Below are positions 48,036 through 63,589 of a stretch of 64,000 nt of DNA, in pieces. Location: IMG/VR virus record IMGVR_UViG_3300037761_000289, positions 925 through 64,924 of that record. One strand, given 5' to 3'. Made by a program: the position numbers and the translations under genes. Position 1 is the first letter of the stretch; each line of letters begins with the position of its first letter. The DNA comes from a virus (lineage: Duplodnaviria > Caudoviricetes). The notes under the pieces were generated by a model. That model ran no database searches. It worked only from the letters and a program-made list of their open reading frames with translations, and was not told where the DNA came from.

Positions 48036-48622
48036 AGCTTCGCCGCCAGGATGAGCTGGAACCGGTCCACCTTGTCGTGGCGCAGGATCCGCCAACCGGC
48101 CATCGTCACCAGATCCCGGTAGCCCTGCCAGTCCATCGCCCACGCGTGGCACTCGTCATGCCAGTTCGGCGTCTCGTCCCACGGCGACGAGCAGACGAGG
48201 TGGGATGCGGCCGAACCGTGCACCCAACGCAGCACACCCACCGGGTCGGCGATGTGCTCCAGCACCTCCGTCAGGACCACCACGTCACCCAACCTGACCC
48301 GGGCCCGGTCGGCGCCGAACACGTCCAGCGCCTCCGCCTCGACGCCCCGCTCCGCCCAGCCGGCCGCGTTCGCCGGACAGAAGTCGTAACCCCACGCCCG
48401 TATCTCGCCGCCGAGCAGCTGCAACAGGCCACCGTCGCCGCAACCCAGGTCGGTGACGGTGCCGCCGCCCGACATCCGGACCGCGGCCCGCACCAGCCCG
48501 GCGGCGGCGAGCAGCCGCGGCCGGTGCAGATCCTGCTCCAGGTGCGGCGCCCGCGGCCGGTGCTCGTGGAACGCGAACGTCGACACGTGCGGAACGTCGC
48601 CGTCGAACAGCTTCCAGATCAT
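48032..48622 (-). CDS. Class I SAM-dependent methyltransferase
   Basis: VTDLGCGDGGLL, WGYD and LTEVLEHI. Confidence 0.9.
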   Translation of the reverse strand: MIWKLFDGDVPHVSTFAFHEHRPRAPHLEQDLHRPRLLAAAGLVRAAVRMSGGGTVTDLGCGDGGLLQLLGGEIRAWGYDFCPANAAGWAERGVEAEALDVFGADRARVRLGDVVVLTEVLEHIADPVGVLRWVHGSAASHLVCSSPWDETPNWHDECHAWAMDWQGYRDLVTMAGWRILRHDKVDRFQLILAAKL

Positions 48623-49209
48623 GGCCGCACCGCCCACACAGCCTGGAACCCGGCGTCACACCGGCGCTGCTCCTTGACCGTCCAGCCGCACGCCTCGACC
48701 ATCTCCGCGTAGCCGGCCTCGTCCCACGCCCACGCGTGGTGCTCGTAGTGGGTCCGGTCGTCCTCGTCGAACGGCGACGACAACACCAGCAGCGCACCCG
48801 GCAACGACCGGATGAATCCGCGCGGGTCGACCAGATGCTCCACCACCTCGGTGGCGACGACCAGCTGCCCGTACTCCAACTCGTCGCGGGTGAAGTCGGC
48901 CAGCCGTGCGTCGACACAACGCAACGTCGAAGCGACGTGGATGTTCTGCGCGCCGACGTCGTAGCCCCACGCCCGCACCGGCACCCGGGCGTGGATCTTC
49001 TGCAGCAGCGCGCCGTCGCCGCAACCCACGTCGGTGACCGTCTCGACGCCGTACGCCTCGACCACCTCGGCCACCAGGTCGGCGACCATGTCGGTGCGTT
49101 CGGCGTGGCCCCGCTGGCACACCGGGTCGACCCACGGGTGCCGGGCGAAGAACGCCGGCCGGGTGAACGCCGGGATCGTGTACTGGGGGAACAGGCGCCA
49201 CTCGCTCAC
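48619..49209 (-). CDS. Class I SAM-dependent methyltransferase (paralogue)
   Basis: VTDVGCGDGALL, WGYD and ATEVVEHL. Confidence 0.9.
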   Translation of the reverse strand: MSEWRLFPQYTIPAFTRPAFFARHPWVDPVCQRGHAERTDMVADLVAEVVEAYGVETVTDVGCGDGALLQKIHARVPVRAWGYDVGAQNIHVASTLRCVDARLADFTRDELEYGQLVVATEVVEHLVDPRGFIRSLPGALLVLSSPFDEDDRTHYEHHAWAWDEAGYAEMVEACGWTVKEQRRCDAGFQAVWAVRP

Positions 49210-49919
49210 GTCCGCACCTCCCGCAACGCCCGGACCTGCGCCACCTCGGCCGGCATGTTCATGTACTGCCACCGGGTGTACGAGGCCCGGTCGACGGCGT
49301 ACATCTCCCGCGCGTTGACCCGCTTGTGGCCCTCGTCCCAGTCGGCCTTGCCTGCGATCGGGTGCATGTGCTCGACGACCACCTCGGGCAGGTACCGGAG
49401 GCAGCCGGCCCGCCCGCCGAGATCGAGCCAGTAGTTGTCGACGTACATGTGCCGCAACGTCGGCGGGCACATGTGGCCCAGCACCCGCACGATGTCGCAG
49501 GTCATCGCCACCTGCGTCGGCAGCCGCTCACCCTGCAACAGGTCGTCGCCGTAGACGATGCCCGTACCCAGCTCGCGCAGCGCGTCCACGTACGCCCGGT
49601 CCCAGCCCTTCGTGCGCGGCCGGTGGTCGTCGCCCATGAACCCGACCGCGAACGGCGGGTCGTCAGCCGTGGCGAGTTTGACCGCGACCGCGTTGAGCGC
49701 CCGGACCATGGTGGCCGGCGCGCCGCCGGTATCGATGACGCCGTTCGGGTAGACGCCGAGCGCGGCGTGGTACTCCCCGCGCGTCGGATCGTCTTCGTCC
49801 ACCGCGAACACGAGGTGCGCGGTGGTGCGGGTCGCGCCGAACGCCTCGGCCAACCCCACGGCCGCCTCCGGGCGCCCGCGCGACGGCACGACCACCACGA
49901 GGTCACCCATCGCCATCAC
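49206..49919 (-). CDS. Glycosyltransferase, GT2/GT-A
   Basis: LVVVVPSRGRPE, FAVDEDD, GFMGDDH and HMYVDN. Confidence 0.9.
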   Translation of the reverse strand: MMAMGDLVVVVPSRGRPEAAVGLAEAFGATRTTAHLVFAVDEDDPTRGEYHAALGVYPNGVIDTGGAPATMVRALNAVAVKLATADDPPFAVGFMGDDHRPRTKGWDRAYVDALRELGTGIVYGDDLLQGERLPTQVAMTCDIVRVLGHMCPPTLRHMYVDNYWLDLGGRAGCLRYLPEVVVEHMHPIAGKADWDEGHKRVNAREMYAVDRASYTRWQYMNMPAEVAQVRALREVRT

Positions 49920-50115
49920 CCCGCGCGACCGCGAACTGCTCGGCGGCGATGACGACCACCCTCAAGGCCAACTGTCGGGCCTGCAGCATCCCGGCGATCT
50001 CGTCGGCGAGCGCACGCACGTGCCCGGCGGCGGTATCGGACGACACCCGGACCAGCAGCATGTCCCCGGGGTGTGCCACGACAGCGTCCAGCACAAGGTC
50101 GAGGTCAGGCATCAA
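49903..50115 (-). CDS. Small hypothetical protein
   Basis: VAHPGDMLLVRV; coupled. Confidence 0.6.
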   Translation of the reverse strand: MMPDLDLVLDAVVAHPGDMLLVRVSSDTAAGHVRALADEIAGMLQARQLALRVVVIAAEQFAVARGDGDG

Positions 50116-50941
50116 CGGCCACCTCGTCCCGCTTCACCGGCACGACCGAGACGGGTGTCGGGTCGATCGCCCGTTGCCGCCAGTAGTCCTCCTCCTGCAC
50201 CCACACCCGTTTCGCGTGGGTCGTCACCACACCCGTGTGCACGTAAACCGGGATGGCCAACGCCAACGCGCGCATGCAGAACGACAGGTCCTCAGCGACG
50301 ATCTGCGCCGTAGACGGGTTGGGAATCCTGTCGTACCAGTGGGGCCCGAACCTCTCTTCGATCCGCTCAAAGACGCTGCGGTGAATCAGGATGCACGCCG
50401 ACCCGGTACCGGAGCACCGCAGCACCGTGTTGCCGGGGTAGTCCCAACGGACGGCGAACCCGGAGCGGTCCTGGCCCTGCTCCTCGACGGTGACCCAGTC
50501 GAAAATCGTCGGGATCGCGGATGTCCGCCACCCGCCCATGTCGTCCGACGTGGTTTCCCGCTGCGCGAAGCACAACGCGCCGACGATGGGGCGTTGTCCG
50601 GCGTCGGCGGCATCCAACAGCCGCTCGACGGTGTCCACCGGGAAGCCCATGTCGGTGTCGATCCAGAACAGCCAAGCCGCTCTGGTGTCGTCGAGGAAGT
50701 GGCGGACCGCCTTGTTCCTGGCCTCGACGAGGCCGTCGGTTCCGCACCTCATGGCTATGTACCCGCCACTCAGGACCCGGCCGGCGTTGGCCATGTCGTA
50801 CCCGATGAGCCCGACCATCGAGTGGTGCCAGGAGTACGTCACGTCGTTCTGGTGGAGGTACGCCACGGTGACGGCGTCCGCCGGTTCGTGGTCCGGCGGT
50901 ACGCCGAGCTGGATCGGCGTGTAGGGACTTTCCTCGGTCAT
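50105..50941 (-). CDS. Glycosyltransferase, GT-A fold
   Basis: LVEARNKAVRHFL, WLFWIDTDMGF, IVGALCF, GTGSACILIHRSVFE and AEDLSFC. Confidence 0.9.
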   Translation of the reverse strand: MTEESPYTPIQLGVPPDHEPADAVTVAYLHQNDVTYSWHHSMVGLIGYDMANAGRVLSGGYIAMRCGTDGLVEARNKAVRHFLDDTRAAWLFWIDTDMGFPVDTVERLLDAADAGQRPIVGALCFAQRETTSDDMGGWRTSAIPTIFDWVTVEEQGQDRSGFAVRWDYPGNTVLRCSGTGSACILIHRSVFERIEERFGPHWYDRIPNPSTAQIVAEDLSFCMRALALAIPVYVHTGVVTTHAKRVWVQEEDYWRQRAIDPTPVSVVPVKRDEVAVDA

Positions 50942-51027
50942 CGTCCTGTCCTTCGTGGATGGCCTCGGATGGCGGACCTCGGGCCGGCCGGCCATCCGAG
51001 CGGCCGGCCCGAGGGGTTCGTGTGCGG

Positions 51028-51827: not shown

Positions 51828-52487
51828 CTAGATGGCCAATCGCAGTTGCCTCGTCCGCTCGACGTACGCTGCGGCAGCGCGGATGACCCGCGGACTGTCC
51901 TGGAGCAGACCAATCGCCGAGTTGCAGTTGCGGCACAGCAGGCCGCGCACTTGGTTGGTCGCGTGACAATGGTCGACGGCGAACACGTCGTGGCCGTGTC
52001 CGGGGTCTGTCGATCGACAGATGGCGCAGCGGCCGAACTGCTCGGCGAGGATCCGCTCGTAGTCAGCGACCACGATGCCGTAGGGACGCAGGCTGCGAGC
52101 GCGCGACCGCTCACGCTTTCGCCGCACGCGGCACGGCTCGCAGTACGGAATTCCGAATCCGTTGGTTGGCGGCGCCCCGCAGCCGCAGCGGCGACCGAGC
52201 GCGGTCCGGTTCCTCATCTGCTCGTCTTTGAACTTGGTACGGCACTTGGACGTACAGAACTTCTTCGGCGAGAGCACCTCGTGCGACTTAGGGTGGTTGT
52301 CCGCACCGCACCAGATGCAGGTCGGTTCATCGAACCCACGCTGGTACGACCCTCGGGTCTTGTCGCGGTACCGCAACTGGGCCAACCTGACGCGCTCAAC
52401 GCGGCAGGTTGGACATCTAGGGTCGCCCTTGAGGTTCGTGGCGGGCGCGGGGCAATCGGTGCATATACGATCTGGCACGTCGGGCAC
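51828..52487 (-). CDS. Free-standing endonuclease VII-like (HNH) endonuclease with N-terminal Zn fingers
   Basis: YGIVVADYERILAEQFGRCAIC...VDHCHATNQVRGLLCRNCNSAIG; lower-GC codon usage. Confidence 0.9.
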   Translation of the reverse strand: MPDVPDRICTDCPAPATNLKGDPRCPTCRVERVRLAQLRYRDKTRGSYQRGFDEPTCIWCGADNHPKSHEVLSPKKFCTSKCRTKFKDEQMRNRTALGRRCGCGAPPTNGFGIPYCEPCRVRRKRERSRARSLRPYGIVVADYERILAEQFGRCAICRSTDPGHGHDVFAVDHCHATNQVRGLLCRNCNSAIGLLQDSPRVIRAAAAYVERTRQLRLAI

Positions 52488-52579: not shown

Positions 52580-54040
52580 TCAACCCGTGTTGACCAACAA
52601 GCGGAACCCAAGATCATTCACGCTTCCTCCACCTATCCTCGCGTACCCGAACCAGCCCCTATTTCCGGTGGGGCGGTTACTTGTCACATCAAAAATATGG
52701 GGGATCAGCTCAATGGACATACCGCCCCTTCGGGCCAAAAGGTAGTTGTCCCAGTCGCCGACGATGGCGTACCCGGTCGTCGCGCTCGTGCTGGTGGTGG
52801 TGTCCGGCATGTACGGCGACTCGCGGACGCCCTTGCCGAGGATGGTGTCGGCCCATTCGGCGGGCAGGTTCTCGGTGAACGCGTGGAACCCGGTGACCTT
52901 GGCCAGCTGCCGGATCGCGTTGTTCACGGAGATCGACATCAACCAGTTCGCGCGGCGGCGGTACTTCTGGGGAAGCGCCGCCATGACGCGGTATGGCTCG
53001 GTCTCGCCGAACGCACCCGAGGTCTGAACACCGACCCGGACGTTGGTGTTCGCGGAGAGCGCGGTCAGGATGCCCTGCGGCTCGCCGGTGCCCGAGCCGC
53101 GGGTGAACTTGTCGACGAGCAGCTCGTCGTAGCCGACGGCGAGCAGCCGACTCATTTCCGACGCGAACGAGGGGTAGTCCTGGTCGACCTCGATGCTGAA
53201 CGGGATGAAGCCGCGGGCCATGTGCACCGTGACCGTCGGCTGAGCCAGCGTCGGGCTGTTGTCCGTCGCCGCCGCGCTTTCCGTCTGGAACGCCCACGTC
53301 ACACCGGCGGACGAGACGCCCTTCCACTGGTTGGTGTTGACGTTGACCTGCCGGGCCAACTCCAGGAACGGGTTCCCGCTCTCCTGCGCCGTCAAGATGA
53401 TCGACGGGTCGATGAAGACCGGGATTCCGAACCCACCCGCGGTGGTGGTGTTCTCCGACATCGCCCGGTATTCCTCCCACGCCTGCACGGCGCGGGACTC
53501 TTCCGGGGTGAGGAACGGCCGGGGGTGGGTGACCAGCTTCAGCCACGCCTCCCGGTACTCCTCGGTCTCGGTGACCAGCACCCGGCGGGCGATGTCGGTG
53601 CTGTGCCGGATCTGCTTGTCGGCCTCCGACTGCTCCTCGGCGGACATGTGGCCCGAGTTCTCCCGCGCCTCCAGGGTCCGCAGCGCCCGGTCGCGGGCGT
53701 CGCGGACCGACAGCCGGCGCACGTCGCCGAACGGGTCGTCCTTCTGCCCGCCGAGCCGCGAGTACTCGATCGCGGCCGGCCGGCGGCGCAGCACCTCGTT
53801 GACCTTGCGGTGTTCCTCGTACATCTTCTCGGCGGCCTCGTGGACCTCCAGCAGCATCTGAAGCGCCCGCTCCTCCGCCGCGTCCAGCGAGCGGAGCTCG
53901 CCGTTCGGCGTCTGGTGGATCGCCCGGATCTGCGCCTTCGTGACGTCGATGATGTCGCTGACTTCCTCGGGGGTCCGGCCCCTGAGGTCTTCGAGCGTGT
54001 AGTTCCGCTCGGGGGTTTCGGTTGTGCGGCTTTCAGGCAT
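52580..54040 (-). CDS. Major capsid protein (HK97 fold, with delta-like N-terminus)
   Basis: Coiled-coil N-terminus; AMSENTTTAGGFGIPVFID, WAFQTES and YAIVGDWDNY. Confidence 0.93.
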   Translation of the reverse strand: MPESRTTETPERNYTLEDLRGRTPEEVSDIIDVTKAQIRAIHQTPNGELRSLDAAEERALQMLLEVHEAAEKMYEEHRKVNEVLRRRPAAIEYSRLGGQKDDPFGDVRRLSVRDARDRALRTLEARENSGHMSAEEQSEADKQIRHSTDIARRVLVTETEEYREAWLKLVTHPRPFLTPEESRAVQAWEEYRAMSENTTTAGGFGIPVFIDPSIILTAQESGNPFLELARQVNVNTNQWKGVSSAGVTWAFQTESAAATDNSPTLAQPTVTVHMARGFIPFSIEVDQDYPSFASEMSRLLAVGYDELLVDKFTRGSGTGEPQGILTALSANTNVRVGVQTSGAFGETEPYRVMAALPQKYRRRANWLMSISVNNAIRQLAKVTGFHAFTENLPAEWADTILGKGVRESPYMPDTTTSTSATTGYAIVGDWDNYLLARRGGMSIELIPHIFDVTSNRPTGNRGWFGYARIGGGSVNDLGFRLLVNTG

Positions 54041-57000
54041 GCGTGAGCACTCCAAATGCTCGGAGCACCCGGTCTCGGGTGCGGGGATCGATGGGGGTTG
54101 ACCGCACGCCGTCTTCGGCCGCTTGGTCGTGATCACCGCGCCCCGCACCCTGTGCGGGTCCCCCGGTGAGGTCTGTGCCGCGCCCGTCGAGCGCGGTGAG
54201 GTCCACGGCGCGGTCGAGGTGACCGGCGAGCTCGTGGACGAGTTCCCGGATCTCCGCCGGGTCCATCGCGGCCAGCAGCGAGCGGACTCCGACGGATGTC
54301 GTGTCGTAGGCGGGGAAGACGACCGGTCCGAACTCGTGGACGTCGGCGTCGGTCACCTCGCGCCGTTCGACGCGCCCGTCGCGGCGCCAGTCGTCACCGC
54401 CGGCCGGCACCTCGAACCGGAAGGACATGCCCTTGACCGAGCCACCGACGATGGCCTGGCGGATCGGCTCGATGACCGGGTTGTCATACAGTTCCGCCGC
54501 GACGTATAGGCCGTCGCGGCGGTCGTCGAGGTCGAGGACCTGGGCTATGGGTACGGCCCCGACCCTCGGGTCACGGCCGTGTTCCCACTGCATCACCGGG
54601 GTCCGCTCGGCGAGGCTGCGGGTGAACGCGCCGGCGCGGATCGTCTCCTCGAAGTCGCCTTTCAGGTCGCGGATCCGGGCAGGCTTGCCGTACACCGCGG
54701 CGTAGCCTTCCAGCCGGCGGCCGTTGCCGGAACGCGTCGCGCGGGTGTCGAAGTCGAAGGCGCGCACGCACAGGCCCGCGACGCCCGCCGACCGACGCGG
54801 TCGGCGACGGCGCGGCGGCGGGCCACCGTCGACCGCGTCGGCGGCCGCGCCGAGGAACCGGACGATCGACGCCTCCCGCGAATGTTCCGTCTCGATGTCG
54901 TCGAACCCGGACGTGCCCTCGGCCGCGTCGAGCTCCGACGCCAGGTCGGCCAGCCGTTCCTGATGGTTGGCCTGGACCTCCCGAAGGCGCGCGGCTACGT
55001 CCCGGGGCGGCTTGCCGGCCCGAAGGTCACGCTTCGCCTCATCGGCGAACCGTCCCGCACCCTCCGGGGGGGCACCCAGCCCGTTGAGCGCGTCGAGGAG
55101 ATCTTTGCCGGCGGCCTTGACCGCCGCCTTCGGGCCACGGCGGCCGTGCTTGGACTGGTCGTGCAGATCCTTAAGGTGCCGGACGTCTGTGGCTGGCATG
55201 CCGACTCCTTGCGACCTCGTGGGGCCCGACTCGGCGGCGAAGCTGATGCCGTACTTCTCCCCGGCCGCCTTGATGCGGCCCTTGATGCGCTTGACCTGCT
55301 CCGGGGTGTACTTCGCCGCGTTGCCCGGCATGTTGATGTATGACCAGGCCGCCCGGCAGTGCCGTTCGGAGTCCAGCGGGTACCGCTTCTTGCCGTCGGA
55401 CTGGTAGCCGGGGTCGGCGTACGTTACGTCGCCGTACGGCATGTCCGCGCGGGCGCGCCTGGCCGGGCTGGTCTTCGTAGTGACCGGTGCTTCGGGCATG
55501 CCGGCTCCCCATCTGTCGTCCGGGTTTGCGGCGGCGCGGTCAGCACCCGAACGCGCCGGGATGCCACTACCACCCGGCAGCGTCCGGTCCCGGCGGACCA
55601 GGGTGCGCAGGGTCTCAGCGAACTGCCCGGCATCGTCGCGGTCGAGCTCGATGCTGTCACCGGTCGGCATCAGCACCGAGAAGGTGCCGTCGGTGAGCAG
55701 GCTCACGCCGAGGTCGTCGTTGATGTCCTCACCGTCGAGAGTGTCGGCGTCCTCCGGGGCGACGGGCTCCTTCGGCAGGTCGACCGTCAGGAGGCGGTCG
55801 ATCGCGGCGGCGAGCTGGTCCGCCTCGTCGATGCGCAACTCCGGCGGGTTCGCGGCGTCGCCACCGGCCAGCAGTTGGATCGTGTGGTCGCTCAGCAGCG
55901 AGACGTCGTAGTCGCCCACGCCTTCGGTTTCGACCTCGGCCGGCGGATGGTTGTCCCGCAGCGCTTCGAGGTGCTTGATGAGGTTGTCGAAACCGTCCTC
56001 GTCGAGATCCAACTCGTGGAAGTCGGGGTCGTCCTCAGTGTCCTCCGCCGTCGGTATGCCGACGGTGAGGACCGGGCCGAACTCGTCCAGGTCGTCGGGG
56101 TCGTCGGGGTCGCCCTCGTAGATCTGTTTCTCGCTGATGGCGAGGTAGATCCGCCCGCCGCTGGTCTCGACGATCGTGTCGTCGATGAGCCCGTCCTCGT
56201 TCCCGTCGCCGCCGCGCTGGCGCCACATCCCGAAAGCGCCGTCGCTGATCTTGTCGACGTCGCGGTAGGAGAAGTGGACCGTGGCCCCGTCCACGTTGCC
56301 GACACCGAGATCCATGGTGCCGTCGCCACGGATCCCGACATACATCGTTTCTTCGTCGCCGCCCAGGGTGTCGAACGAGATGTCGTCGAGAATGTCGGCG
56401 AGGTGCCCGACGAGCCCGCCGATCCCGGGCACGTCGACCCACTGGCCGTCAGTGTCCCGTGGCTGACGCGGATCAAACCGCTTCGCGGTCCGCACGCTCC
56501 CCTTGCCGGTACCGCCGCCCGCGTCGAGCAGACGAAGAATCTTGCGCAGCTCGGCGAGGTCGAACACGGCGCGGTCGATCCCGTTGTCCCAACCCTCGGG
56601 CGCTCCATCCGGGCGGACCACAAGGACCACTTGGGCGGCAGCTTCATCGACGAAAACCTGGTACTCAACGGTTGCCCACTCGCCAACGACATCGCCCTCG
56701 GCGACAGCGATGTAGCCGAGCGGATCGCCGCCGCGTGCGGCGTTGTGGGCCGCCGTCAACTCCTCAATGCGCCGGAAATTACGGTCGCGTTCAGCCTGGA
56801 GAGCTACCGCCTCGTCCCCACTCGCCGCGACCAACTCGTGGTAGTTGGCACCCTGACGTTCGAGGAGACGTTCAATCTCGTCCCAACGAGCGTTGTCATC
56901 CCGCGCCAGCCCCTCGGCCTCATCGGTGGCGCCACGCAGCGTGGCAGACAGCCGCAGGGCGGCGGGTTCATCGAGCCGCGCGGTGGTCCAGTCGTCACCT

Positions 57001-57422
57001 TCACCAAGCGCGTTCAGCCGTTCGGTCAGCCGTTCATACTCCGCGGACTCCTCGTCGAGCCGATCCCTTTCAACATCGATCCGTTGCCGCTCGGCGTGGT
57101 TTTCGGCTGTCCTCGACCGGTTCCCTGACCATGCCGGCATACCAACACCGGAGGGTTCCGTCGCAAGACGGATGGAACGCTGCCCGTCACGTCGTGTCAC
57201 CGCCACCCTGACGGCGCCCATGTCCCCATCGAGCTTGCCCGAGGACACCAACTCCTCGCCCGGGTCCAGGTCGATCCGGCCGGCCAGCCGCAGCTTGTCC
57301 AGCGGGTTGCGGACCGACGGGCCGGGAACGTCGACCCCGACCGTGTTGCCGTGCGACTGCTGGTTGTGCCCGCCGAGTTGGTGGCGGGCGTCGGCCTGGG
57401 CGGAGGGCACGGCGAAGCTCAT
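54033..57422 (-). CDS. 1129-aa polyprotein ending in an HK97-type prohead protease (with DUF6582-like domain)
   Basis: C-terminus LEGYAAVY...FEETIRAGAFTRSL...QWEH...GMSFRF...HEFGPVVFPAY; internal PYGDVTYADPGY...RYPLD...RAAWSYIN. Confidence 0.9.
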   Translation of the reverse strand: MSFAVPSAQADARHQLGGHNQQSHGNTVGVDVPGPSVRNPLDKLRLAGRIDLDPGEELVSSGKLDGDMGAVRVAVTRRDGQRSIRLATEPSGVGMPAWSGNRSRTAENHAERQRIDVERDRLDEESAEYERLTERLNALGEGDDWTTARLDEPAALRLSATLRGATDEAEGLARDDNARWDEIERLLERQGANYHELVAASGDEAVALQAERDRNFRRIEELTAAHNAARGGDPLGYIAVAEGDVVGEWATVEYQVFVDEAAAQVVLVVRPDGAPEGWDNGIDRAVFDLAELRKILRLLDAGGGTGKGSVRTAKRFDPRQPRDTDGQWVDVPGIGGLVGHLADILDDISFDTLGGDEETMYVGIRGDGTMDLGVGNVDGATVHFSYRDVDKISDGAFGMWRQRGGDGNEDGLIDDTIVETSGGRIYLAISEKQIYEGDPDDPDDLDEFGPVLTVGIPTAEDTEDDPDFHELDLDEDGFDNLIKHLEALRDNHPPAEVETEGVGDYDVSLLSDHTIQLLAGGDAANPPELRIDEADQLAAAIDRLLTVDLPKEPVAPEDADTLDGEDINDDLGVSLLTDGTFSVLMPTGDSIELDRDDAGQFAETLRTLVRRDRTLPGGSGIPARSGADRAAANPDDRWGAGMPEAPVTTKTSPARRARADMPYGDVTYADPGYQSDGKKRYPLDSERHCRAAWSYINMPGNAAKYTPEQVKRIKGRIKAAGEKYGISFAAESGPTRSQGVGMPATDVRHLKDLHDQSKHGRRGPKAAVKAAGKDLLDALNGLGAPPEGAGRFADEAKRDLRAGKPPRDVAARLREVQANHQERLADLASELDAAEGTSGFDDIETEHSREASIVRFLGAAADAVDGGPPPRRRRPRRSAGVAGLCVRAFDFDTRATRSGNGRRLEGYAAVYGKPARIRDLKGDFEETIRAGAFTRSLAERTPVMQWEHGRDPRVGAVPIAQVLDLDDRRDGLYVAAELYDNPVIEPIRQAIVGGSVKGMSFRFEVPAGGDDWRRDGRVERREVTDADVHEFGPVVFPAYDTTSVGVRSLLAAMDPAEIRELVHELAGHLDRAVDLTALDGRGTDLTGGPAQGAGRGDHDQAAEDGVRSTPIDPRTRDRVLRAFGVLTHA

Positions 57423-57516
57423 GTCGGGTCCCGCCTTCCCGTGGGTTCGCGAACTGGCGGGCGCACCGGACTACCGGGAAGACTCGCAAGCGGGGATGTG
57501 GCGGAGGAAACGCGTC

Positions 57517-57639
57517 CTACTCGTCGTCGTCCTCGTCGGCCAGCGGCGGAATCCCCTGCGGTGCCTCGTCGAACTGGACGTTGTCGAACCAGTCCGCCAG
57601 CAGGGCGCTTTCCTCGGCGCGGTCGAACGGGTCGATCAC
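57517..57639 (-). CDS. 40-aa highly acidic peptide coupled to the portal-TopIB stop
   Basis: GTG at 57639 overlaps the TGA; MIDPFDRAEESALLADWFDNVQFDEAPQGIPPLADEDDDE. Confidence 0.55.
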   Translation of the reverse strand: MIDPFDRAEESALLADWFDNVQFDEAPQGIPPLADEDDDE

Positions 57640-59990
57640 AACCAGTCCTCCGATTGGACCCACGGATCGAAGACGGTCGGGTTGATGTAGCTCGCCAGCG
57701 CCAGGACCGGGGTGTTGCCCAACTCGGAGCTGACCGCCTCGGCGACCTCCCGCCGCCAACGCCTGAACTCCATTCTACTGCGCGGTTTCTCCTCACCGCG
57801 AACGGCGATCTCGCGGAGTGCGACCACATTGGCGTGCACCGTCCGGAGGTCTTTCAGCAGAAACTCACGTGGCACCCCGGTGGACTGCATGTAGGCGCGG
57901 GTGCGGTCCTCGTCGGTGTCGAACAGCGGCATGTCGCCGCTGCGGGTGGCCAGCCGCATCGACAGTGCGCGGGCGATGAGCGGGTCCCGCACCGTCAGCT
58001 GGATGTGCACGCCCTTCTTGCCGACGAAGTCCAGGCCGACCACGTCCCCGTCCACGGTGACGTGCCGGGCGCGTAGGTTCGTCGCGCCGTGCGCCTTCTC
58101 CTTCGCGCCCGTGTCCCGGTCCGACCCCGGCCGCATTCCCAGCCGGCGGATCAGCGCCAGCGCGGCCGCGTGGTCGTTGGTGTCGACGTCCCGCTCGATC
58201 GCGTGGTCCAACTTGTCCAGGTGCCTGTTCAGTTCCCGCACCCGGGCGAACTTCACCGCCGCCTGCGACTCGGTGTGCTCCGCAGAGTAGATCGTCTGCC
58301 CGCGGCCCTTGGAGTCCCGCCCCCTGGCGAGGATCTTCGCCGAGTCCAGGTCGTCGGCGATGTGCACGTCGGTCCACGCCGGCGGGATCGCCTTGCCGAC
58401 CTTGGCCCGGAAGTCGGCCCGGTCCTGCTCGGTGGCGGCGTGCATGCCGCCGAAGACGGCCCGCGCGACGTCGCCGACCACGTCGCCGACCCATTCGCCG
58501 GTGTGCGGGTCGCGCGGCTGGCCGGGGTCGAACCTGCGCTGTCCGGCCCGGCCGCGGGCCGGGTCGTCGCCCACGGCGGCCGGTGGGCCACCGGCAGCCT
58601 TCCCGCCGGACGGGGCTTCCGCCCCGGGCTCCTGAAGCTGCACGGACGTCAACCCGGTGTGCTGCAACAGGGAGATGTCCTGCCCGCGGACCGCGGCGAT
58701 CGCCGAGTCGGCGGTGAAACCCTCACGTACATACATGGTGATGGTGGCGGCCTTGACCTGCTCGATCTCGGCGGCGTCCTTGGCGTCCTCCCGCAGCAGC
58801 AGAACATCGGCGGTGTCGAACCACAGTTCCGCGTCGCGGGGCACGTCGATGACCGCGGCGAGCGCGCCGCACAACCCGGCCGCCTTCGGATACACCCACG
58901 TGTCGGCGAAGATACGGCGCGCCTGGCCGAAGTTGCCGGCGTTCAGGCTCGACCCGGCCAGCCCCTCGGCGATCTGCAGGATCGCCGCCGGCACCCGCGA
59001 CAGCATCGCGATCCGCGTCTCACCCTGACCCTGGACGGACTTCAGGTCCAGGTCGTTGAGGTTGGCCCCGACCGGCATCACGTCCGCGCCGCCGGTCAGA
59101 TACAACGTGCGGAACGCGTTGGCGACACCCGCGTGGCGGGCCTCCAACATCTCGACGATCTCGTCGAACTGCTCCTTGGTCGCCAACGGCCGGCCGTCGG
59201 GGGCGGTCAGCCCCTTGATGACGAGGTTCGGCGTGGCCGAGTTCTGCCAGTACTGCAACTTGAACTCGCTGATCGCCCGATCGCCCTGCAGGTCCCGGAT
59301 CGCCGGGGTCAGCCACGACATGCCCAGACCAGGCATCAGCGCATCCGGTTCCGGCGCCCAGTGCGCGACCTCGTTGGGCAGCAACGTCGAAGGCCGGTTC
59401 GTGCCCCCGAACAGCCCGCCGTTCTGGTAGACGTAGCCCAGCAGTTCGCGGTCCAACGCCCAGCCCGGGTCGTCGGGTTCCCGCTGCGACCCGTAGACGA
59501 TGCCCACCCAGTCCGGGCGCATCACGAACAGCCGCTTCGGCTGGCGGTGCACGTAGGCGTTGCCGGCCAGGCCCGCGTGCCACTCCATCCGGGCCAGCAT
59601 CTCCCCGGTGGTGACGTTGGTGTCCGGATTCTCCAGCGGCGCCAACGCGGTGGTGCCGAACTGCCGCCGGGGTGTCCTCGTGCTCGGCAGGTTCCGGAAT
59701 GTGAACCGCAGCTGCGACAGCACCGCGGTGCGGACCAGCTCGGCGGCGAACGCCGGCGGGCAGCCGTTGACCGCCGCCGCGTACCCCGGCAGCGAGTTCG
59801 CGATCTCCGAGATTCGGATCCCGCCGAGCGTCTGCAGCAACCGGGCACCCGGATGCCCGTAGCCGTACGTCTGACCGCCGTAGCCGAACGTCCCCGCCTG
59901 TTGCAGGATGCCCAGGTAGGTGTCGGCGCTGTAGCGGACCTCCGACGTGTCCCGACGCGCCAGGGCGCTGATGCGGTCAGCCAGTGCCAC
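57636..59990 (-). CDS. Portal protein fused to C-terminal DNA topoisomerase IB
   Basis: Portal motifs GNAYV, MRPDWV, VAHWAP, GMSWL, NSATPNLVI and RIAMLSRVP. Then IPPAWTDVHI, GRDSKGRGQTIY, GMRPG, FVGKKG, KDLRT and LGNTP...SYINP. Confidence 0.9.
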   Translation of the reverse strand: MALADRISALARRDTSEVRYSADTYLGILQQAGTFGYGGQTYGYGHPGARLLQTLGGIRISEIANSLPGYAAAVNGCPPAFAAELVRTAVLSQLRFTFRNLPSTRTPRRQFGTTALAPLENPDTNVTTGEMLARMEWHAGLAGNAYVHRQPKRLFVMRPDWVGIVYGSQREPDDPGWALDRELLGYVYQNGGLFGGTNRPSTLLPNEVAHWAPEPDALMPGLGMSWLTPAIRDLQGDRAISEFKLQYWQNSATPNLVIKGLTAPDGRPLATKEQFDEIVEMLEARHAGVANAFRTLYLTGGADVMPVGANLNDLDLKSVQGQGETRIAMLSRVPAAILQIAEGLAGSSLNAGNFGQARRIFADTWVYPKAAGLCGALAAVIDVPRDAELWFDTADVLLLREDAKDAAEIEQVKAATITMYVREGFTADSAIAAVRGQDISLLQHTGLTSVQLQEPGAEAPSGGKAAGGPPAAVGDDPARGRAGQRRFDPGQPRDPHTGEWVGDVVGDVARAVFGGMHAATEQDRADFRAKVGKAIPPAWTDVHIADDLDSAKILARGRDSKGRGQTIYSAEHTESQAAVKFARVRELNRHLDKLDHAIERDVDTNDHAAALALIRRLGMRPGSDRDTGAKEKAHGATNLRARHVTVDGDVVGLDFVGKKGVHIQLTVRDPLIARALSMRLATRSGDMPLFDTDEDRTRAYMQSTGVPREFLLKDLRTVHANVVALREIAVRGEEKPRSRMEFRRWRREVAEAVSSELGNTPVLALASYINPTVFDPWVQSEDWL

Positions 59991-60282
59991 CGGCGGCCCT
60001 CGGCTTACGGGCACGCGTCGGCCACCTCTCAGGCGCGAAGTTCCGGCGGGCCGCCTGCTCCCGGGCGTCCAACCAGCCGAGCCGGACACCCGCCGCGCAC
60101 CAACCCGCCGCCGCACGCACCGCCCGCATCACACCACCGACCACCGCGAGAACCCAGAACGCGACCCAGCCCACAGCCCAGAAACACGCGCCGATGCCCG
60201 ACGCGACCACCCGGCCCGGCTCCACCGTCCGCGGCGGCGCCATCTCGATCTCTTCGGTGATGCGATCAGCCAGGGAGACCAC
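59977..60282 (-). CDS. Small membrane protein between terL and portal
   Basis: FWAVGWVAFWVLAVVGG...GVRLGWLDAR. Confidence 0.75.
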   Translation of the reverse strand: MVSLADRITEEIEMAPPRTVEPGRVVASGIGACFWAVGWVAFWVLAVVGGVMRAVRAAAGWCAAGVRLGWLDAREQAARRNFAPERWPTRARKPRAAGGTG

Positions 60283-60296
60283 AGGTTCGACCTCCT

Positions 60297-62873
60297 CTAG
60301 CGCCAGGTAGCGAAGAACGGGGTCAGCGGTGGGGCGGTGGCGTGCCCGTGCAACGCCAGCGTGAACGACACCAACGGCGAGATGTCGACCTCCGACGTCA
60401 TGCGGTGCCACGCCCACGCGCCGTCGCCGAGGTCCCGCCTCGCCGCGCCCCGGACCGCCGCCGACAGGGCACGGACGTATTCGGCGTTACCCGCCCACTT
60501 CAGGTTGCGCAGCTCGGCGTGTTCGCCGGCGATCGCGTCGAACACCCGCCCGCATGCCCGGCCCAGCTCCGGCCGGTTGACACGCCGAACCGTGATCCCG
60601 GCCGCCTCGACGTCATCGGCGAGCGCACCGGCCGGACCCGACGCGTCGGCCAACCACTGCGACGGCCGCCACTTCGTGTTCAGCTCCACAACCCGGTCCA
60701 CCATCCACGTCACACCCGGCCGCCGGTCCACGACCTCGCCGTGCTGCCACCCGCCCGCGCCGGCGGCGCCGACACTGATCGACGACCAGGTCCGCTCCGG
60801 GTTCGTGTCGAACGCGAAACACACCGGGTCGACCGGCCGCGACAGCGGATCGTGCGCGGCCTCCCACTCCGGCTTGCCGATGACCAACCAACCGTCGTCC
60901 GGCTCCAGCGGCCACGCACCCAGAGCCTCGGCGTCGAACCGGTCGCCGAGAGTGCTCAGGTCGTGTTCCACGTCATCCTCGCCCAGCAGAACACCCCACG
61001 ACGGGTTCGTCGACCGCCACACCTCACGGTCGGTGCGGACATAGCCCGGCGGCGGCGACCACTCATGCCAGCCGATCCGGCCCGCACCGTCAGACGCCAG
61101 CGCGCGGCGGCGGACCTTCGCCCAGTAGGTGCCCCGATCGATCGGCGGCGTGCCCATGTACACCAACTGCGGGTTGGGCCGGGCCCGCTGGGTCGGGCCG
61201 AGAGCCGCCATCTCGTCCTCGGACAGGCCCATCTGCGCCTCGTCAAGGATCAGCACGTCGGCGGAGAACCCCCGGATCGACTCCTTCGACCGCGCCTTGA
61301 CCAACAGCCGCTGCGGCGGATCCCGCAACTTGATCGCCTCGTCGCCGCGGGCGTGACTCACGCCCTTCAGTCGGCGGCGCAACGCCGGGGTGTCCTCGAC
61401 GCACTGCACCAGCCGCAGGAAGATCTCCTTGGCGGTCCCGACCTGGTGCGCCGTGTACACGATCAGCTGCTCGCCGAAGACGTACAGGCCGGCCAGGATC
61501 CGGATCACCGCGATGACCGAGTTGTGGGTCGGGACCAGATCCCGGCCGGCCAGGTAGAGCCCGTCCGGAGAGTCGACGGTGATGCACCGCACCGGCACCG
61601 ACGGCACCGGCTCGATACGCGCGACGCTCAGCGTCGCCCGCCCCTTGCCGCCGTCGACCGCCTTCACCCGGGCGGCCTTGCGGGGCATCCGGAACGGCAC
61701 GAACGGATCCAGCCTGGTCGGCGTCCAACACACCCGGAACTTCGGCCCGCAGTCCCGCCCGTTCAGCGTGGCCCGGTGCTCGACGAGCGTCGCCCGCCAG
61801 CCCAGCGACCGGGCTAGGAACAGTACGCCGTCGGCCAGCGCGCGGGTGGTCGAGCAGAACTCCACCTGCCCACGCCGGGCCTCGATCGTGCCGTCGGTGT
61901 CAAGCAGACCCTGAAGCAGAGCCTCACGCTGCGCGGCGCCGGCGGTCAGGTAGACATCCGGAATGTGCTTGTCGCCGAGCACGCCCAACGCCCGCAGCAA
62001 CGGTTGCATCCCGGTCCGGCCGCCGGGCCGTCCGTCCGTGGTGTTGAACCGCAGGTGCCACGCGGTGTTACAGGTGTTCCGCACCCGGCTGACCACCCGG
62101 TAGCCGGCAGCCTCAACCTGGGCGACCATGTGCCCGAGGTCCTCGCCGCCGACCGTCAGTGCCGCGCCCCTGGAATCGCCGTCACCGAGCCACGCACCGA
62201 ACATGTACGGGTCGATCGGCAGGTCAACGACCGGCGACTTCAGCGGCTCCTGAGTGGGCAGTTGGAACCGGTACTCGTTCGTCGCGTACGTCTTGCCGTC
62301 GGTCACCGACGTACGTCCCCCGCCGGGGTGGCGCGACAACCCCCCGGCCAGCATGTCTGCCGTCGTCACCGTGCGGGCCTCGAACCACCTGCGGCGTTCC
62401 CCACGCGGCCCCGCCGAACGTTCCCGCCGCTTGTCGGTCACGGTCCACAGGTGGTCCGCGTCAGCGACCACCGACCGGCCGTCGGTCGTCGTGACGCGGT
62501 AGCACTCGTGGCCCAGCAGCACGTCGGAGACCGCCACCACGGCCACCGGATAGCCGGCGGGGTGGAAAACCTCGTCACCAACCCTGATCCCGGCCAGGGA
62601 CACCCAGCCGCGGTTCGCCGTCAAGATGGGCGTACCGGCATCCAGCGCTTTGCCGTTCTGTCGAGGTACTACCAGGCCCGACTCGCGGCACGCCCACCGG
62701 CCCGGCGCCCGCTCGGACAGCATGTCGTCCACGACCAGCGACTGCCACGGCAAGCAGACAATGCCCGCCACCTCGGCGATCTCACGGGCCGCCGGACCCT
62801 CGGTGCCGATCCGGTCAGGTGCCCGGTGCTGCCTTGGCGACGTGAGCGGCGCGGCGAGCAGCGAGCTCGTCAA
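60297..62873 (-). CDS. terL: Terminase large subunit containing an intein
   Basis: TTG start at 62873; Walker A VPRQNGK|S split by the intein, YTAHQ, Walker B LILDEAQ, and nuclease FAFDT...DISPLVS. Confidence 0.93.
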   Translation of the reverse strand: MTSSLLAAPLTSPRQHRAPDRIGTEGPAAREIAEVAGIVCLPWQSLVVDDMLSERAPGRWACRESGLVVPRQNGKALDAGTPILTANRGWVSLAGIRVGDEVFHPAGYPVAVVAVSDVLLGHECYRVTTTDGRSVVADADHLWTVTDKRRERSAGPRGERRRWFEARTVTTADMLAGGLSRHPGGGRTSVTDGKTYATNEYRFQLPTQEPLKSPVVDLPIDPYMFGAWLGDGDSRGAALTVGGEDLGHMVAQVEAAGYRVVSRVRNTCNTAWHLRFNTTDGRPGGRTGMQPLLRALGVLGDKHIPDVYLTAGAAQREALLQGLLDTDGTIEARRGQVEFCSTTRALADGVLFLARSLGWRATLVEHRATLNGRDCGPKFRVCWTPTRLDPFVPFRMPRKAARVKAVDGGKGRATLSVARIEPVPSVPVRCITVDSPDGLYLAGRDLVPTHNSVIAVIRILAGLYVFGEQLIVYTAHQVGTAKEIFLRLVQCVEDTPALRRRLKGVSHARGDEAIKLRDPPQRLLVKARSKESIRGFSADVLILDEAQMGLSEDEMAALGPTQRARPNPQLVYMGTPPIDRGTYWAKVRRRALASDGAGRIGWHEWSPPPGYVRTDREVWRSTNPSWGVLLGEDDVEHDLSTLGDRFDAEALGAWPLEPDDGWLVIGKPEWEAAHDPLSRPVDPVCFAFDTNPERTWSSISVGAAGAGGWQHGEVVDRRPGVTWMVDRVVELNTKWRPSQWLADASGPAGALADDVEAAGITVRRVNRPELGRACGRVFDAIAGEHAELRNLKWAGNAEYVRALSAAVRGAARRDLGDGAWAWHRMTSEVDISPLVSFTLALHGHATAPPLTPFFATWR
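61521..62648 (-). mobile_element. Class 3 intein (376 aa) with LAGLIDADG homing endonuclease
   Basis: Starts with Ala (ALDAGTP); W in ADHLW, C in VRCITV, T in PTHN|S; endonuclease motifs FGAWLGDG and LQGLLDTDG. Confidence 0.92.
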
Positions 62874-63099
62874 CGCGGGACACCTCCACCTCCAGCCCCG
62901 CCGCGGCGATCGCGTCGAGGGTGCCACGCCATTCGCGGGCGGTCGCGGGTGCCGGCGCGGTGTCCAGATCCAGGTGACGGGCCAGGATGTAGGCCGCCTC
63001 GGCCAGCGCCAGCGTGTGCGCGGGCGGATCCTTGAGCCCCCGGACGTAGGCCCGGGTGGCGCGTTCGATGGGGCCGCCCGTGTCAGAATCCGTGGACAT
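62815..63099 (-). CDS. terS: Terminase small subunit
   Basis: Directly precedes terL; AYILARHLD...EWRGTL...SRVDELAARRA. Confidence 0.8.
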   Translation of the reverse strand: MSTDSDTGGPIERATRAYVRGLKDPPAHTLALAEAAYILARHLDLDTAPAPATAREWRGTLDAIAAAGLEVEVSRVDELAARRAAHVAKAAPGT

Positions 63100-63589
63100 C
63101 CCCGATCCCCTCGCCGCGAATCACCTCCGCAGCCGGTGGCACCGCAAGGTACTCGGCTGCCTGGCGGCACACCTCGGGGTCATCGCGAAAGAATCCGATG
63201 CCGGTGTTGCATCTAGAGCAGAGGAGTCCGCGGACGCGGCCGGTTACGTGATCATGATCCACGGGCCAGGCCGTGCGGCCAAGAGGCTGAGAGCCGCCTG
63301 GCTCGCTCGCTCCGCAGATCGCGCAGCCGCCGCCCTGATATGCCAGCAACGCCTCGTACTGCTCGAGCGAGAGGCCGTACTGCAACTTGATCCTGCTGGC
63401 CCAGAAGACCTCGCGCGGGACTCGCCGGCCGCGCTCTCTGTCCAAGGTCTTCGACCGTTCGGTTTGGCATTGGCGACACCGTGCGGGTGCCCTGCGAAGC
63501 CCCAGCGCGGTGAGCGTCGCGCCGCAGTCGAGGCACGGATAGTCATCGAAGTTTCTCAATGCGGGTCTCCCGGATTGCGAGAGCCCCAC
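63083..63589 (-). CDS. Endonuclease VII-like (HNH) endonuclease
   Basis: YGLSLEQYEALLAYQGGGCAIC...VDHDHVTGRVRGLLCSRCNTGIG. Confidence 0.9.
   Translation of the reverse strand: MGLSQSGRPALRNFDDYPCLDCGATLTALGLRRAPARCRQCQTERSKTLDRERGRRVPREVFWASRIKLQYGLSLEQYEALLAYQGGGCAICGASEPGGSQPLGRTAWPVDHDHVTGRVRGLLCSRCNTGIGFFRDDPEVCRQAAEYLAVPPAAEVIRGEGIGDVHGF

What the first reader, a model, noticed from the sequence alone, without database searches (positions are those of the whole stretch)
56439..58538. Shared linker motif (R/K)RFDPxQPRDxxG(x)xW precedes cargo domains in both portal and protease polyprotein
Seen: RRFDPGQPRDPHTGEWV (58491-58538) sits between portal and TopIB. KRFDPRQPRDTDGQWV (56439-56483) sits inside the protease polyprotein at a domain boundary. 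The DNA differs, so the peptide, not the DNA, is conserved. Inference: this is a portable tag, either a prohead-protease cleavage or recognition site or a capsid-interior docking or ejection signal. It would let unrelated domains be appended to head-assembly proteins, making a modular virion cargo-loading system.
Basis: partly seen in the sequence, partly recalled or inferred. Interest (0 to 1): 0.85.

Follow-up and report, generated by a model that had tools for sequence, protein, structure and literature searches.

The report
Header tag on phage-head cargo modules
A 13-residue peptide (FDPxQPRDxxGxW plus a glycine-rich linker) found twice in this phage also stands in front of unrelated enzyme modules in many other uncultured phages. 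These modules are fused to, or encoded beside, head-assembly proteins, so the peptide is probably an undescribed label for proteins carried in the capsid, but what reads it is unknown.

Summary
FDPGQPRDPHTGEW lies between the portal and an intact topoisomerase IB. FDPRQPRDTDGQW lies between two independently mobile modules of the prohead-protease polyprotein.

It is not chance. Shuffles of the window give 0 matches. A DNA pattern that specifies only FDPxQPRD finds 81 sites in viral contigs, and 76 of them continue xxGx(W/F). Only 14 of 104 sites in a 596-Gb prokaryote genome set do so.

The tag always has at least 59 residues after it. It usually has a Gly-rich linker and occurs up to 7 times per protein, 109-776 aa apart. 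Upstream domains include portal, MuF and S78 protease. Downstream modules include TopIB, ADP-ribosyltransferases, Zeta toxin, Acb1 and 2H. These are the "polyvalent proteins" of Iyer et al. 2017, but I found no paper, Pfam or NCBIfam model, or PDB chain for the tag.

It is interchangeable with other tags at the same junctions. Two HxLxGxH(D/N)QxxHG tags also occur in the protease polyprotein.

Free-standing tagged genes exist in a protease-less head module, and 11 of 14 complete tagged genomes lack a recognisable prohead protease. I therefore favour an address or handling label over a plain protease site. Neither is tested.

Earlier agents of this scan reported the same kind of tag on other DNA.

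The parts
58491..58532 (-). Type-A tag FDPGQPRDPHTGEW, in the linker between the portal and TopIB
   Evidence: In the closest relative (78% identical over the searched TopIB-side region) the tag is an island of conservation in an otherwise variable linker that differs in length.
56439..56477 (-). Type-A tag FDPRQPRDTDGQW, between module 1 and module 2 of the protease polyprotein
   Evidence: Module boundaries come from the library search and from the AlphaFold model, which is disordered just before the tag.
57348..57383 (-). Type-B tag HQLGGHNQQSHG at the N-terminus of the protease polyprotein, heading module 1
   Evidence: In relatives the same module is headed by type-A, HPRD-variant or type-B tags. 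The type-B consensus HLPGKHDQ(S/D)SHG was confirmed in 6 of 6 viral-contig hits.
55140..55175 (-). Second type-B tag HLKDLHDQSKHG, between DUF6582 and the pre-protease segment
   Evidence: Coordinates were computed from the ORF start.
57636..59990 (-). Portal-TopIB fusion gene (784 aa as called in the public collection; the longest ORF reaches 60116)
   Evidence: Pfam PF04860 plus PF01028 and PF21338. PHROG portal. TopIB aligns to Deinococcus TopIB 2f4q at E 2e-20 with R, K, R, N and Y in place. The called 784-aa product is P0004.
57517..57639 (-). 40-aa very acidic ORF whose start overlaps the TopIB stop codon (GTGA); GGAGGA lies 6 nt upstream
   Evidence: Earlier agents of the scan reported a small acidic partner after TopIB cassettes. 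Its function is not tested.
54033..57422 (-). 1129-aa polyprotein: tag B, module 1, tag A, acidic module 2, DUF6582, tag B, helical segment, S78 prohead protease, C-terminal tail
56508..57332 (-). Module 1 (residues ~31-305): beta-sheet, long helical hairpin, beta-sheet; resembles a PUR-repeat / Whirly-type fold
   Evidence: More than 70 clusters of relatives, free-standing or inside long proteins. AlphaFold mean pLDDT 87.9, pTM 0.80. Foldseek match to human PURA 8chv: E 2e-4, probability 1.0, TM 0.52 on the target.
55527..56435 (-). Module 2 (residues ~330-632): strongly acidic (77 D/E against 21 K/R), no family match
   Evidence: No Pfam or PHROG hit.
54285..54752 (-). S78 (HK97-type) prohead serine protease domain
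   Evidence: PF04586 E 1.2e-20. phrog_80. TIGR01543.
52580..54040 (-). HK97-type major capsid protein with an N-terminal delta-like region; no tag-like sequence
   Evidence: phrog_10 E 4.6e-37. Sequence. Motif scans of all frames.

Best explanation
FDPxQPRDxxG(R/K/Q)W, followed by a Gly-rich linker, is one type of a family of short portable 'header' peptides. These peptides stand in front of each effector or cargo module of phage-type polyvalent proteins. The modules are fused to portal, MuF or prohead protease, or are encoded as separate genes right beside them.

In this phage, two type-A and two type-B headers divide the portal-TopIB protein and the protease polyprotein into units. One unit is TopIB. 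The others are a PUR-like module, an acidic module, DUF6582 and the protease.

I infer that the header belongs functionally to the module that follows it. I read it as an address or handling label, read by some conserved component of the head. That component would hold or position the module inside the procapsid so that it travels with, and leaves with, the DNA. Cutting near the header in fused forms may accompany this.

Shown: the peptide's conservation, its viral enrichment, its syntax (always before a module, often with a Gly-rich linker, and repeated), its interchangeability with other tags, and its association with head modules.

Inferred and untested: encapsidation of the modules, the existence and identity of a reader, and any cleavage.
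For: (1) Reality and enrichment. A DNA pattern specifying only FDPxQPRD finds sites that continue xxGx(W/F) in 59 of 62 and 17 of 19 cases in viral contigs. The figure is 14 of 104 in 596 Gb of prokaryote genomes.

(2) Syntax, over 141 distinct instances.
- Positions not fixed by the search are conserved: F/Y 95%, D 90%, P 85%, W 94%.
- Gly reaches 70% four residues after the W.
- Successive tags are 109-776 aa apart.
- At least 59 residues always follow the tag.

(3) Company. Upstream domains are portal, MuF, S78, 2H and ART. Downstream domains are MuF, TopIB, ARTs, Zeta toxin, Acb1, PI3/4-kinase-like, GNAT and peptidases.

(4) Repetition. There are up to 7 tags in one protein. One locus has 8 tags in 5 consecutive genes after a Mu-type portal.

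(5) The tag stays with the downstream module when genes are separate.
- Locus L080 has four small genes starting MAGFDPxQPRD around the portal and MuF genes. Its head module runs portal, MuF, scaffold, capsid, with no protease gene in between.
- No gene was seen to end with the tag.

(6) Interchangeability. The same module 1 is headed by type A, by the HPRD variant or by type B in different phages. The same TopIB cargo is preceded by at least five tag types.

(7) The tag is not tied to a protease. Of 14 tagged records that are at least 90% complete, S78 occurs in 2, Mu-like protease in 1, and ClpP, S49 and S77 in 0.

(8) AlphaFold on a 63-sequence alignment of 40-residue tag segments gives the tag pLDDT of about 80-90, with a beta-bridge between the Arg and the Trp. 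This suggests a small hairpin that could be recognised.
Against: - No reader has been identified.
- About 80% of copies are internal, not at a free terminus. 12 of 63 lie within 60 residues of the ORF start.
- Many copies sit behind portal, MuF or protease domains that would already place the chain in the head, so an address looks redundant there.
- Several tag types coexist in one phage and even in one protein, which is awkward for a single docking site.
- The near-invariance of the tag across phages with unrelated portal and capsid families calls for an equally conserved partner, or for an intrinsic chemical or structural role.
- Absence of a protease rests on five Pfam models and could miss divergent enzymes.
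- L080 is a 5.7-kb fragment.
- No virion proteomics was available.
Confidence: 0.42

Rival explanations
1. The tag is a processing site. A head protease cuts the polyproteins at or beside each tag. The protease could be the S78 domain here and other enzymes elsewhere, including the zincin-like peptidases proposed for polyvalent proteins. Cutting would free the modules from portal, MuF or protease so that they can leave the capsid.
For: - There is one tag per module, like the cleavage sites of viral polyproteins.
- In this phage the tags lie in a protein that itself contains the prohead protease.
- Cargo fused to the portal would need release.
- Gene fissions occur at or shortly upstream of tags.
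- Iyer et al. 2017 propose proteolytic processing of polyvalent proteins (PMC5512222).
- An earlier agent of the scan favoured this reading for three tags in another phage.
Against: - Free-standing genes that start with the tag keep it under selection although there is nothing upstream to cut off.
- 11 of 14 complete tagged genomes have no recognisable S78, ClpP, S49, S77 or Mu-type protease.
- The capsid protein of this phage, the protease's certain substrate, has no tag-like sequence.
- Peptidase domains are rare among tagged proteins.
- One specificity shared by unrelated protease families is unlikely.
Confidence: 0.25
2. The tag has no trafficking role. It is a structural joint: a small hairpin cap plus a flexible linker that lets neighbouring modules fold independently. 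Alternatively it is a conserved seam that lets module cassettes recombine in frame, like the junction motifs of polymorphic toxins. A third possibility is that it acts only after injection, by binding a conserved host factor.
For: - The tag has a predicted local hairpin and is often followed by a Gly-rich linker.
- Modules are exchanged between carriers at the tag.
- The extreme conservation across host phyla would suit an intrinsic role or a universal host partner.
Against: - The DNA is not conserved between copies, so it is a poor substrate for homologous recombination.
- A mere linker cap would not need nine near-invariant residues.
- A mere linker cap would not be kept at the start of free-standing genes.
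- The strict association with head-module genes is not explained.
Confidence: 0.18
3. The tag cleaves itself. The invariant Asp-Pro bond (Asn-Pro in some variants) breaks autocatalytically, as at the NPTH site of FlhB/YscU or the Asp-Pro site of the FrpC self-processing module. This would release the modules without a protease.
For: - D-P follows the aromatic residue in 85-90% of copies, and N-P variants exist.
- This would explain the tags in genomes that lack a protease.
- The comparison with the chemistry of NPTH and FrpC rests on my own knowledge.
Against: - The widespread HPRD variant has D-E, not D-P (W-D-E-x-x-H-P-R-D), and types B, C and D have no such bond.
- Known self-cleaving sites need a surrounding folded domain, whereas this is about 13 residues next to a flexible linker.
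- No data were available.
Confidence: 0.05

Closest known systems
Phage-type polyvalent proteins and portal- or MuF-fused effectors (Iyer, Burroughs, Anand, de Souza, Aravind 2017, PMC5512222)
   Same: The architecture is the same. Several unrelated effector domains (ART, 2H and others) sit in one chain or in neighbouring genes of the head module, fused to portal or MuF. They are proposed to be packaged and injected, and processing is proposed.
   Different: The paper's text does not mention this peptide or any header tag, and TopIB does not appear among the cargoes it describes. Here the carrier is an HK97-type portal and, unusually, the prohead protease itself. The genome has no MuF.
MuF polymorphic toxins (Jamet et al. 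2017, PMC5576092; Bxa, PMC11699363)
   Same: A conserved head-protein N-terminus is joined to variable C-terminal toxin or effector domains. These are followed by small putative immunity genes. MuF is proposed to act as a capsid-targeting domain.
   Different: No junction motif is described in those papers. This phage has no MuF. The tag also occurs without any carrier domain.
Capsid targeting sequence of phage T4 internal proteins and Alt (own knowledge; review PMC9026906, listed but not read)
   Same: A short portable peptide sends unrelated proteins into the prohead and can carry foreign cargo. It is the nearest functional analogy.
   Different: The T4 sequence is strictly N-terminal, unrelated in sequence, specific to one lineage, and removed by the gp21 protease. 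This tag is mostly internal, repeated, found across many host phyla and often without a recognisable protease.
Pre-toxin junction motifs of polymorphic toxins (VENN of CdiA, PxxxxDPxGL of Rhs; own knowledge)
   Same: A short conserved motif marks the border in front of a swappable C-terminal module.
   Different: Those motifs belong to secretion systems and occur once per protein. They are tied to defined release chemistry or to recombination. This tag is phage-head associated, repeated, and followed by a flexible linker.
Cargo-loading peptides of encapsulins (own knowledge)
   Same: A short terminal peptide docks cargo to the inner face of an HK97-fold shell.
   Different: There is no sequence similarity. 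Encapsulin peptides are terminal. Binding here is untested.

Membership tests
Phage-type polyvalent proteins (Iyer et al. 2017) | Two or more unrelated effector-type domains in one polypeptide, encoded in the portal-terminase head module or fused to portal or MuF | tested here: met
   Portal plus TopIB in one ORF. Three modules plus S78 protease in the next ORF. The gene order is terminase, portal, protease, capsid.
Phage-type polyvalent proteins (Iyer et al. 2017) | Packaged in the virion and delivered with the DNA | not testable with these tools
   This needs virion proteomics or an infection assay.
MuF polymorphic toxins | N-terminal MuF (PF04233) domain | tested here: not met
   PF04233 has no match in the whole 64.9-kb record. 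The carriers here are the portal and the protease.
T4-type capsid targeting sequence | Located at the free N-terminus of the cargo | tested here: not met
   Both copies in the window are internal (residues 529 and 316). Only 12 of 63 copies elsewhere lie within 60 residues of the ORF start, although some genes do start MAGFDP.
T4-type capsid targeting sequence | Sufficient to load a foreign protein into proheads; removed by the prohead protease | not testable with these tools
Prohead-protease cleavage site | Occurs together with a prohead protease in the same genome | tested here: not met
   Of 14 complete tagged records, S78 is in 2, Mu-like_Pro in 1, and ClpP, S49 and S77 in 0. L080 has portal, MuF, scaffold and capsid genes with no protease gene between them. 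Caveat: divergent proteases may escape the Pfam models, and the S77 search matched nothing anywhere, including its control genomes.
Prohead-protease cleavage site | Resembles the maturation site of the capsid protein of the same phage | tested here: not met
   There is no tag-like sequence in the capsid gene or elsewhere in real frames of the window. The true capsid cleavage site is not known.
Type IB topoisomerase (cargo of the first tag) | Catalytic Arg, Lys, Arg, His/Asn and Tyr | tested here: met
   The alignment to Deinococcus TopIB 2f4q (E 2e-20) has R, K, R, N and Y at the corresponding positions. Which residues are catalytic rests on my own knowledge of the family.
HK97-type portal and S78 prohead protease (carriers) | Match over the curated Pfam cut-off | tested here: met
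   PF04860 scores 85.1 bits (cut-off 39.1). PF04586 scores 74.8 bits (cut-off 21).
Any curated family or solved structure that covers the tag itself | A Pfam, NCBIfam or PHROG model, or a PDB chain, matching the 13-residue core | tested here: not met
   No model overlaps the tags. A profile of the tag and an HPRD-variant peptide find no PDB chain at E up to 10.

The most novel reading that the evidence does not exclude
FDPxQPRDxxGxW and its sister tags (NxxHDxxxGxF, HLPGKHDQxxHG, GDxxGHxFHGNQW) form a widespread, undescribed addressing code of tailed phages. Each tag would be a small hairpin that a conserved head component reads, most plausibly the portal, next to whose gene the cargo genes cluster. 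The tag would be sufficient to load any protein into the capsid and have it delivered with the DNA into the next host.
Probability: 0.25. Interest if true: 0.85.

Novelty: new variant of a known kind. Interest (0 to 1): 0.62.

Why it matters
It is largely unknown how tailed phages, other than T4 and a few other models, select proteins for the capsid and deliver them with the DNA. These proteins include anti-defence enzymes, toxins, and here a topoisomerase.

A short conserved header found across phages of many bacterial phyla gives a concrete and mutable handle on that question:
- It defines the cargo set of an uncultured phage from sequence alone. Every module behind a tag is a candidate injected effector. 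Here these are TopIB, a PUR-like nucleic-acid-binding module, a very acidic module and DUF6582.
- If the tag is sufficient for loading, it would be a general way to load foreign proteins into phage particles.
- If it turns out to be a processing site, it still gives the rule by which polyvalent proteins are cut into working enzymes.

Tried and rejected
- Plus-strand reading of the given coordinates gives an unrelated peptide.
- Cultured phages. The portal and protease have relatives in Gordonia, Mycobacterium and Rhodococcus phages, but without the TopIB or the N-terminal extension. tblastn with 32-residue tag segments found only marginal matches (E of 1 or more) or nothing. A free-standing tagged protein and a 7-tag protein gave no annotated lead. 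I therefore could not tie the tag to a phage with virion proteomics.
- Literature. Searches for the motif in several notations, and for capsid targeting, polyvalent proteins and MuF, found no description. The two key papers do not mention it.
- Family libraries and the PDB hold no model or chain with the tag. The ESM Atlas look-up of the tag segment was uninformative, with a score of 0.80.
It was redone with 40-residue segments.
- The hypothesis that the tag is part of the TopIB N-terminal domain is rejected. The Pfam N-domain match starts more than 30 residues downstream, and the tag precedes unrelated domains elsewhere.
- The hypothesis that MuF is the universal partner is rejected. MuF is absent from this genome and from 7 of the 14 other complete tagged records.
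- Docking of the tag on the portal could not be tested. The structure tool folds single chains and returns no coordinates or contacts.
Full report
**Observation.** The two peptides exist, on the minus strand. window:58488-58541:- reads QRRFDPGQPRDPHTGEWV and window:56436-56486:- reads AKRFDPRQPRDTDGQWV. The plus strand at those coordinates gives unrelated peptides. A six-frame scan finds no further copy in the window or in the whole 64.9-kb virus record. That record is an IMG/VR contig rated 100% complete, with 70% G+C. The back-translated pattern matches twice in the window and never in 100 shuffles. The two DNA copies differ at the third base in five of the seven codons that encode the same residue, so it is the peptide that is conserved.

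**Where the tags sit.** The first ORF (57636-60116, minus strand; called in public data as 784 aa, P0004) holds three Pfam matches: Phage_portal at residues 155-451, the bacterial TopIB N-domain at 576-601, and the TopIB catalytic core at 618-793. The tag is at residues 529-542. The TopIB part aligns to Deinococcus TopIB (2f4q, E 2e-20), with the Arg, Lys, Arg, Asn and Tyr positions occupied.

The second ORF (54033-57422, 1129 aa) holds DUF6582 at 658-728 and an S78 prohead protease at 891-1046. Its tag is at residues 316-328. I searched residues 1-660 against 1.84 billion representative proteins, and the hits fall into two sets. One set covers query ~31-305 (more than 70 clusters, free-standing or inside long proteins). 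The other covers ~314-632. The tag therefore sits on the seam between two independently mobile modules.

An AlphaFold model of module 1 is confident (pLDDT 87.9, pTM 0.80) and becomes disordered just before the tag. Its fold resembles PUR repeats. Module 2 is very acidic, with 77 D/E against 21 K/R. The neighbouring genes are a terminase with a LAGLIDADG intein upstream and an HK97-type capsid gene downstream.

**Is the motif more than a coincidence between two proteins?** I scanned 2.9 million viral contigs with a DNA pattern that encodes only FDPxQPRD. With G+C-rich codons, 59 of 62 in-frame matches continue xxGx(W/F). With A+T-rich codons, 17 of 19 do so, in contigs of 42-62% G+C. The same G+C-rich pattern in one genome of each of 185,579 prokaryote species (596 Gb) gives 104 matches. 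Only 14 of these continue in that way. The rest are unrelated proteins. The full peptide is therefore real, and it is mainly a virus feature. The 14 hits lie in genomes or MAGs assigned to Actinomycetota, Planctomycetota and Alphaproteobacteria, so its hosts probably span several bacterial phyla.

**Syntax.** I collected 141 distinct instances.
- Positions not fixed by the search are strongly conserved: F/Y 95%, D 90%, P 85%, R/K/Q 94%, W 94%, then T/S.
- A Gly-rich stretch follows, with G at 70% four residues after the W.
- Successive tags in one protein are 109-776 residues apart.
- At least 59 residues always follow a tag, and no gene was seen to end with one.
- 12 of 63 copies lie within 60 residues of the ORF start. 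The rest are internal.
- AlphaFold on a 63-sequence alignment of 40-residue tag segments gives the tag pLDDT of about 80-90, with a bridge between the Arg and the Trp. This points to a small hairpin.

**Company.** The parts of tagged proteins upstream of the tag match portal (HK97 and Mu types), MuF, S78, 2H phosphoesterase, a lethal-factor-like peptidase and ARTs. The parts downstream match MuF, TopIB, several ART families, Zeta toxin, Acb1, a PI3/PI4-kinase-like domain, GNAT, peptidoglycan-binding domains and peptidases. Most of these parts, on either side, match nothing.

A profile of the tag searched against 5.8 billion proteins recovers polyvalent proteins with 2 to 7 tags each. Examples are P0096 with 7, P0097 with 6, and P0099 with 4, including the DPHTGEW variant of this window. 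In locus L081 a Mu-type portal and the four genes after it carry 8 tags, one of them on a free-standing TopIB.

In L080, a 42% G+C fragment, four small genes start MAGFDPxQPRD. One lies before the portal gene and three between the portal and MuF genes. Scaffold and capsid genes follow, with no protease gene in between. In L063 and L073 the tagged gene or domain follows the portal directly.

**Interchangeable tags.**
- In most HK97-portal-TopIB fusions the same junction carries R(I/F)NxxH(D/S)KxxGQF or HLPGKHNQxxHG in place of FDPxQPRD.
- Upstream of TopIB, in the whole set of relatives, I count at least five tag types.
- The same loci hold many W(D/E)ExxHPR(D/G)xxG(R/K/Q)F variants.
- The protease polyprotein of this window carries two copies of the HxLxGxH(D/N)QxxHG type, at residues 14-25 and about 750-761.
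- A scan specifying only HLPGKHDQ finds 6 viral sites, all continuing (S/D)SHG plus a linker, sometimes twice per protein.
- In relatives, module 1 is headed by type A, by the HPRD variant or by type B, 10-20 residues before the module starts.

**Mechanism.** Two facts argue that the tag belongs to the module that follows it and is not merely a cut site.
1. When genes are separate, the tag stays at or near the start of the downstream gene and remains conserved.
2. Among 14 tagged virus records rated at least 90% complete, S78 is found in 2, a Mu-type protease in 1, and ClpP, S49 and S77 in none. MuF is found in 7.

The capsid protein of this phage has no tag-like sequence. I therefore favour an address or handling label read by a conserved head component (0.42). 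The rivals are a protease processing site (0.25), a structural or recombination joint or a host-side motif (0.18), and self-cleavage at Asp-Pro (0.05).

The weak points of my reading are these:
- No reader is identified.
- Most copies are internal and sit behind carriers that are already in the head.
- Several tag types coexist in one protein.
- Protease absence rests on five Pfam models.

Nothing about encapsidation, cutting or delivery is shown.

**Comparison with what is known.** The architecture is that of phage-type polyvalent proteins and of portal- or MuF-fused effectors (PMC5512222) and of MuF toxins (PMC5576092, PMC11699363). Neither these papers nor any paper I could search describes the tag. 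No Pfam, NCBIfam or PHROG model and no PDB chain covers it. The nearest functional analogies are the T4 capsid targeting sequence, encapsulin cargo-loading peptides and the pre-toxin junction motifs of polymorphic toxins. The tag fails the defining features of the first (a free N-terminus, and a lineage-specific protease) where these could be tested.

**Earlier work in this scan.** Notes by other agents describe the same kind of header tags on other DNA (NPxHDxxGRF; PxQPR...GGQW; three interchangeable tags; GDxxGHxFHGNQ). The word search returned 88 findings in at least 85 genomes. They also describe portal-TopIB fusions followed by a small acidic gene. I checked the acidic-partner lead here. 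A 40-residue, very acidic ORF (57517-57639, minus strand) overlaps the TopIB stop codon by GTGA, and GGAGGA lies 6 nt upstream.

**Verdict.** The interpretation as a portable tag of a head-cargo system is supported in outline. The cleavage-site variant is weakened as a general rule. The docking variant is open. The tag itself appears undescribed in print, within an already described kind of system.

Noticed in passing
window 60297-63170 (-): The large terminase subunit is interrupted by an intein-like insert with a LAGLIDADG homing endonuclease (PF14528, PF05204). The insert appears to sit inside the Walker A loop: the sequence reads ...PRQNGK, then the insert, ...THN, then SVIAVI. The insert seems to begin with Ala, not Cys or Ser.
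   Followed up: partly
window 57517-57639 (-): A 40-aa strongly acidic ORF (ending ...PPLADEDDDE) whose start overlaps the stop codon of the portal-TopIB gene (GTGA), with GGAGGA 6 nt upstream. It could be an inhibitor or immunity partner of the TopIB cargo, as small ORFs are for MuF toxins. This is untested.
   Followed up: partly
window 56508-57332 (-), residues ~31-305 of the protease polyprotein: A widespread cargo module (more than 70 clusters at 50% identity) with a confident AlphaFold model. The model resembles PUR-repeat / Whirly-type nucleic-acid-binding folds, with a long helical hairpin inserted. There is no Pfam or PHROG match.
   Followed up: partly
window 55527-56435 (-), residues ~330-632: A very acidic module (net charge about -56) with an internal repeat of about 60 residues (...VSLLSDHTIQLL... 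and ...VSLLTDGTFSVL...). It could be a DNA mimic, but there is no evidence.
   Followed up: no
P0147, P0148, P0153, P0144 (relatives of modules 1 and 2): Free-standing relatives carry a conserved leader of about 15-25 residues, RxR(V/I)LxALG(V/A)V(D/E), in front of the tag. This may be a second signal.
   Followed up: no
P0009, P0013, P0016, P0018, P0019, P0021, P0022 (TopIB fusions): Another conserved element, (H)VRTxAGAxx(F/Y)xxPIGxxI, stands upstream of TopIB where the other relatives carry the tags. It may be a further tag type.
   Followed up: no
window 51828-52487 (-): A Cys-rich ORF ending in an HNH-endonuclease-like motif (...HCHATNQVRGLLCRNCNSAIG...) lies just downstream of the capsid gene. 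This is by eye only and was not scanned.
   Followed up: no
window ~47160-51000 (-): A run of ORFs that look like sugar or nucleotide-sugar modification genes and SAM-dependent methyltransferases (an NAD-binding GxxGxxG epimerase-like N-terminus, DxGCGDG motifs). This is by eye only and was not scanned.
   Followed up: no
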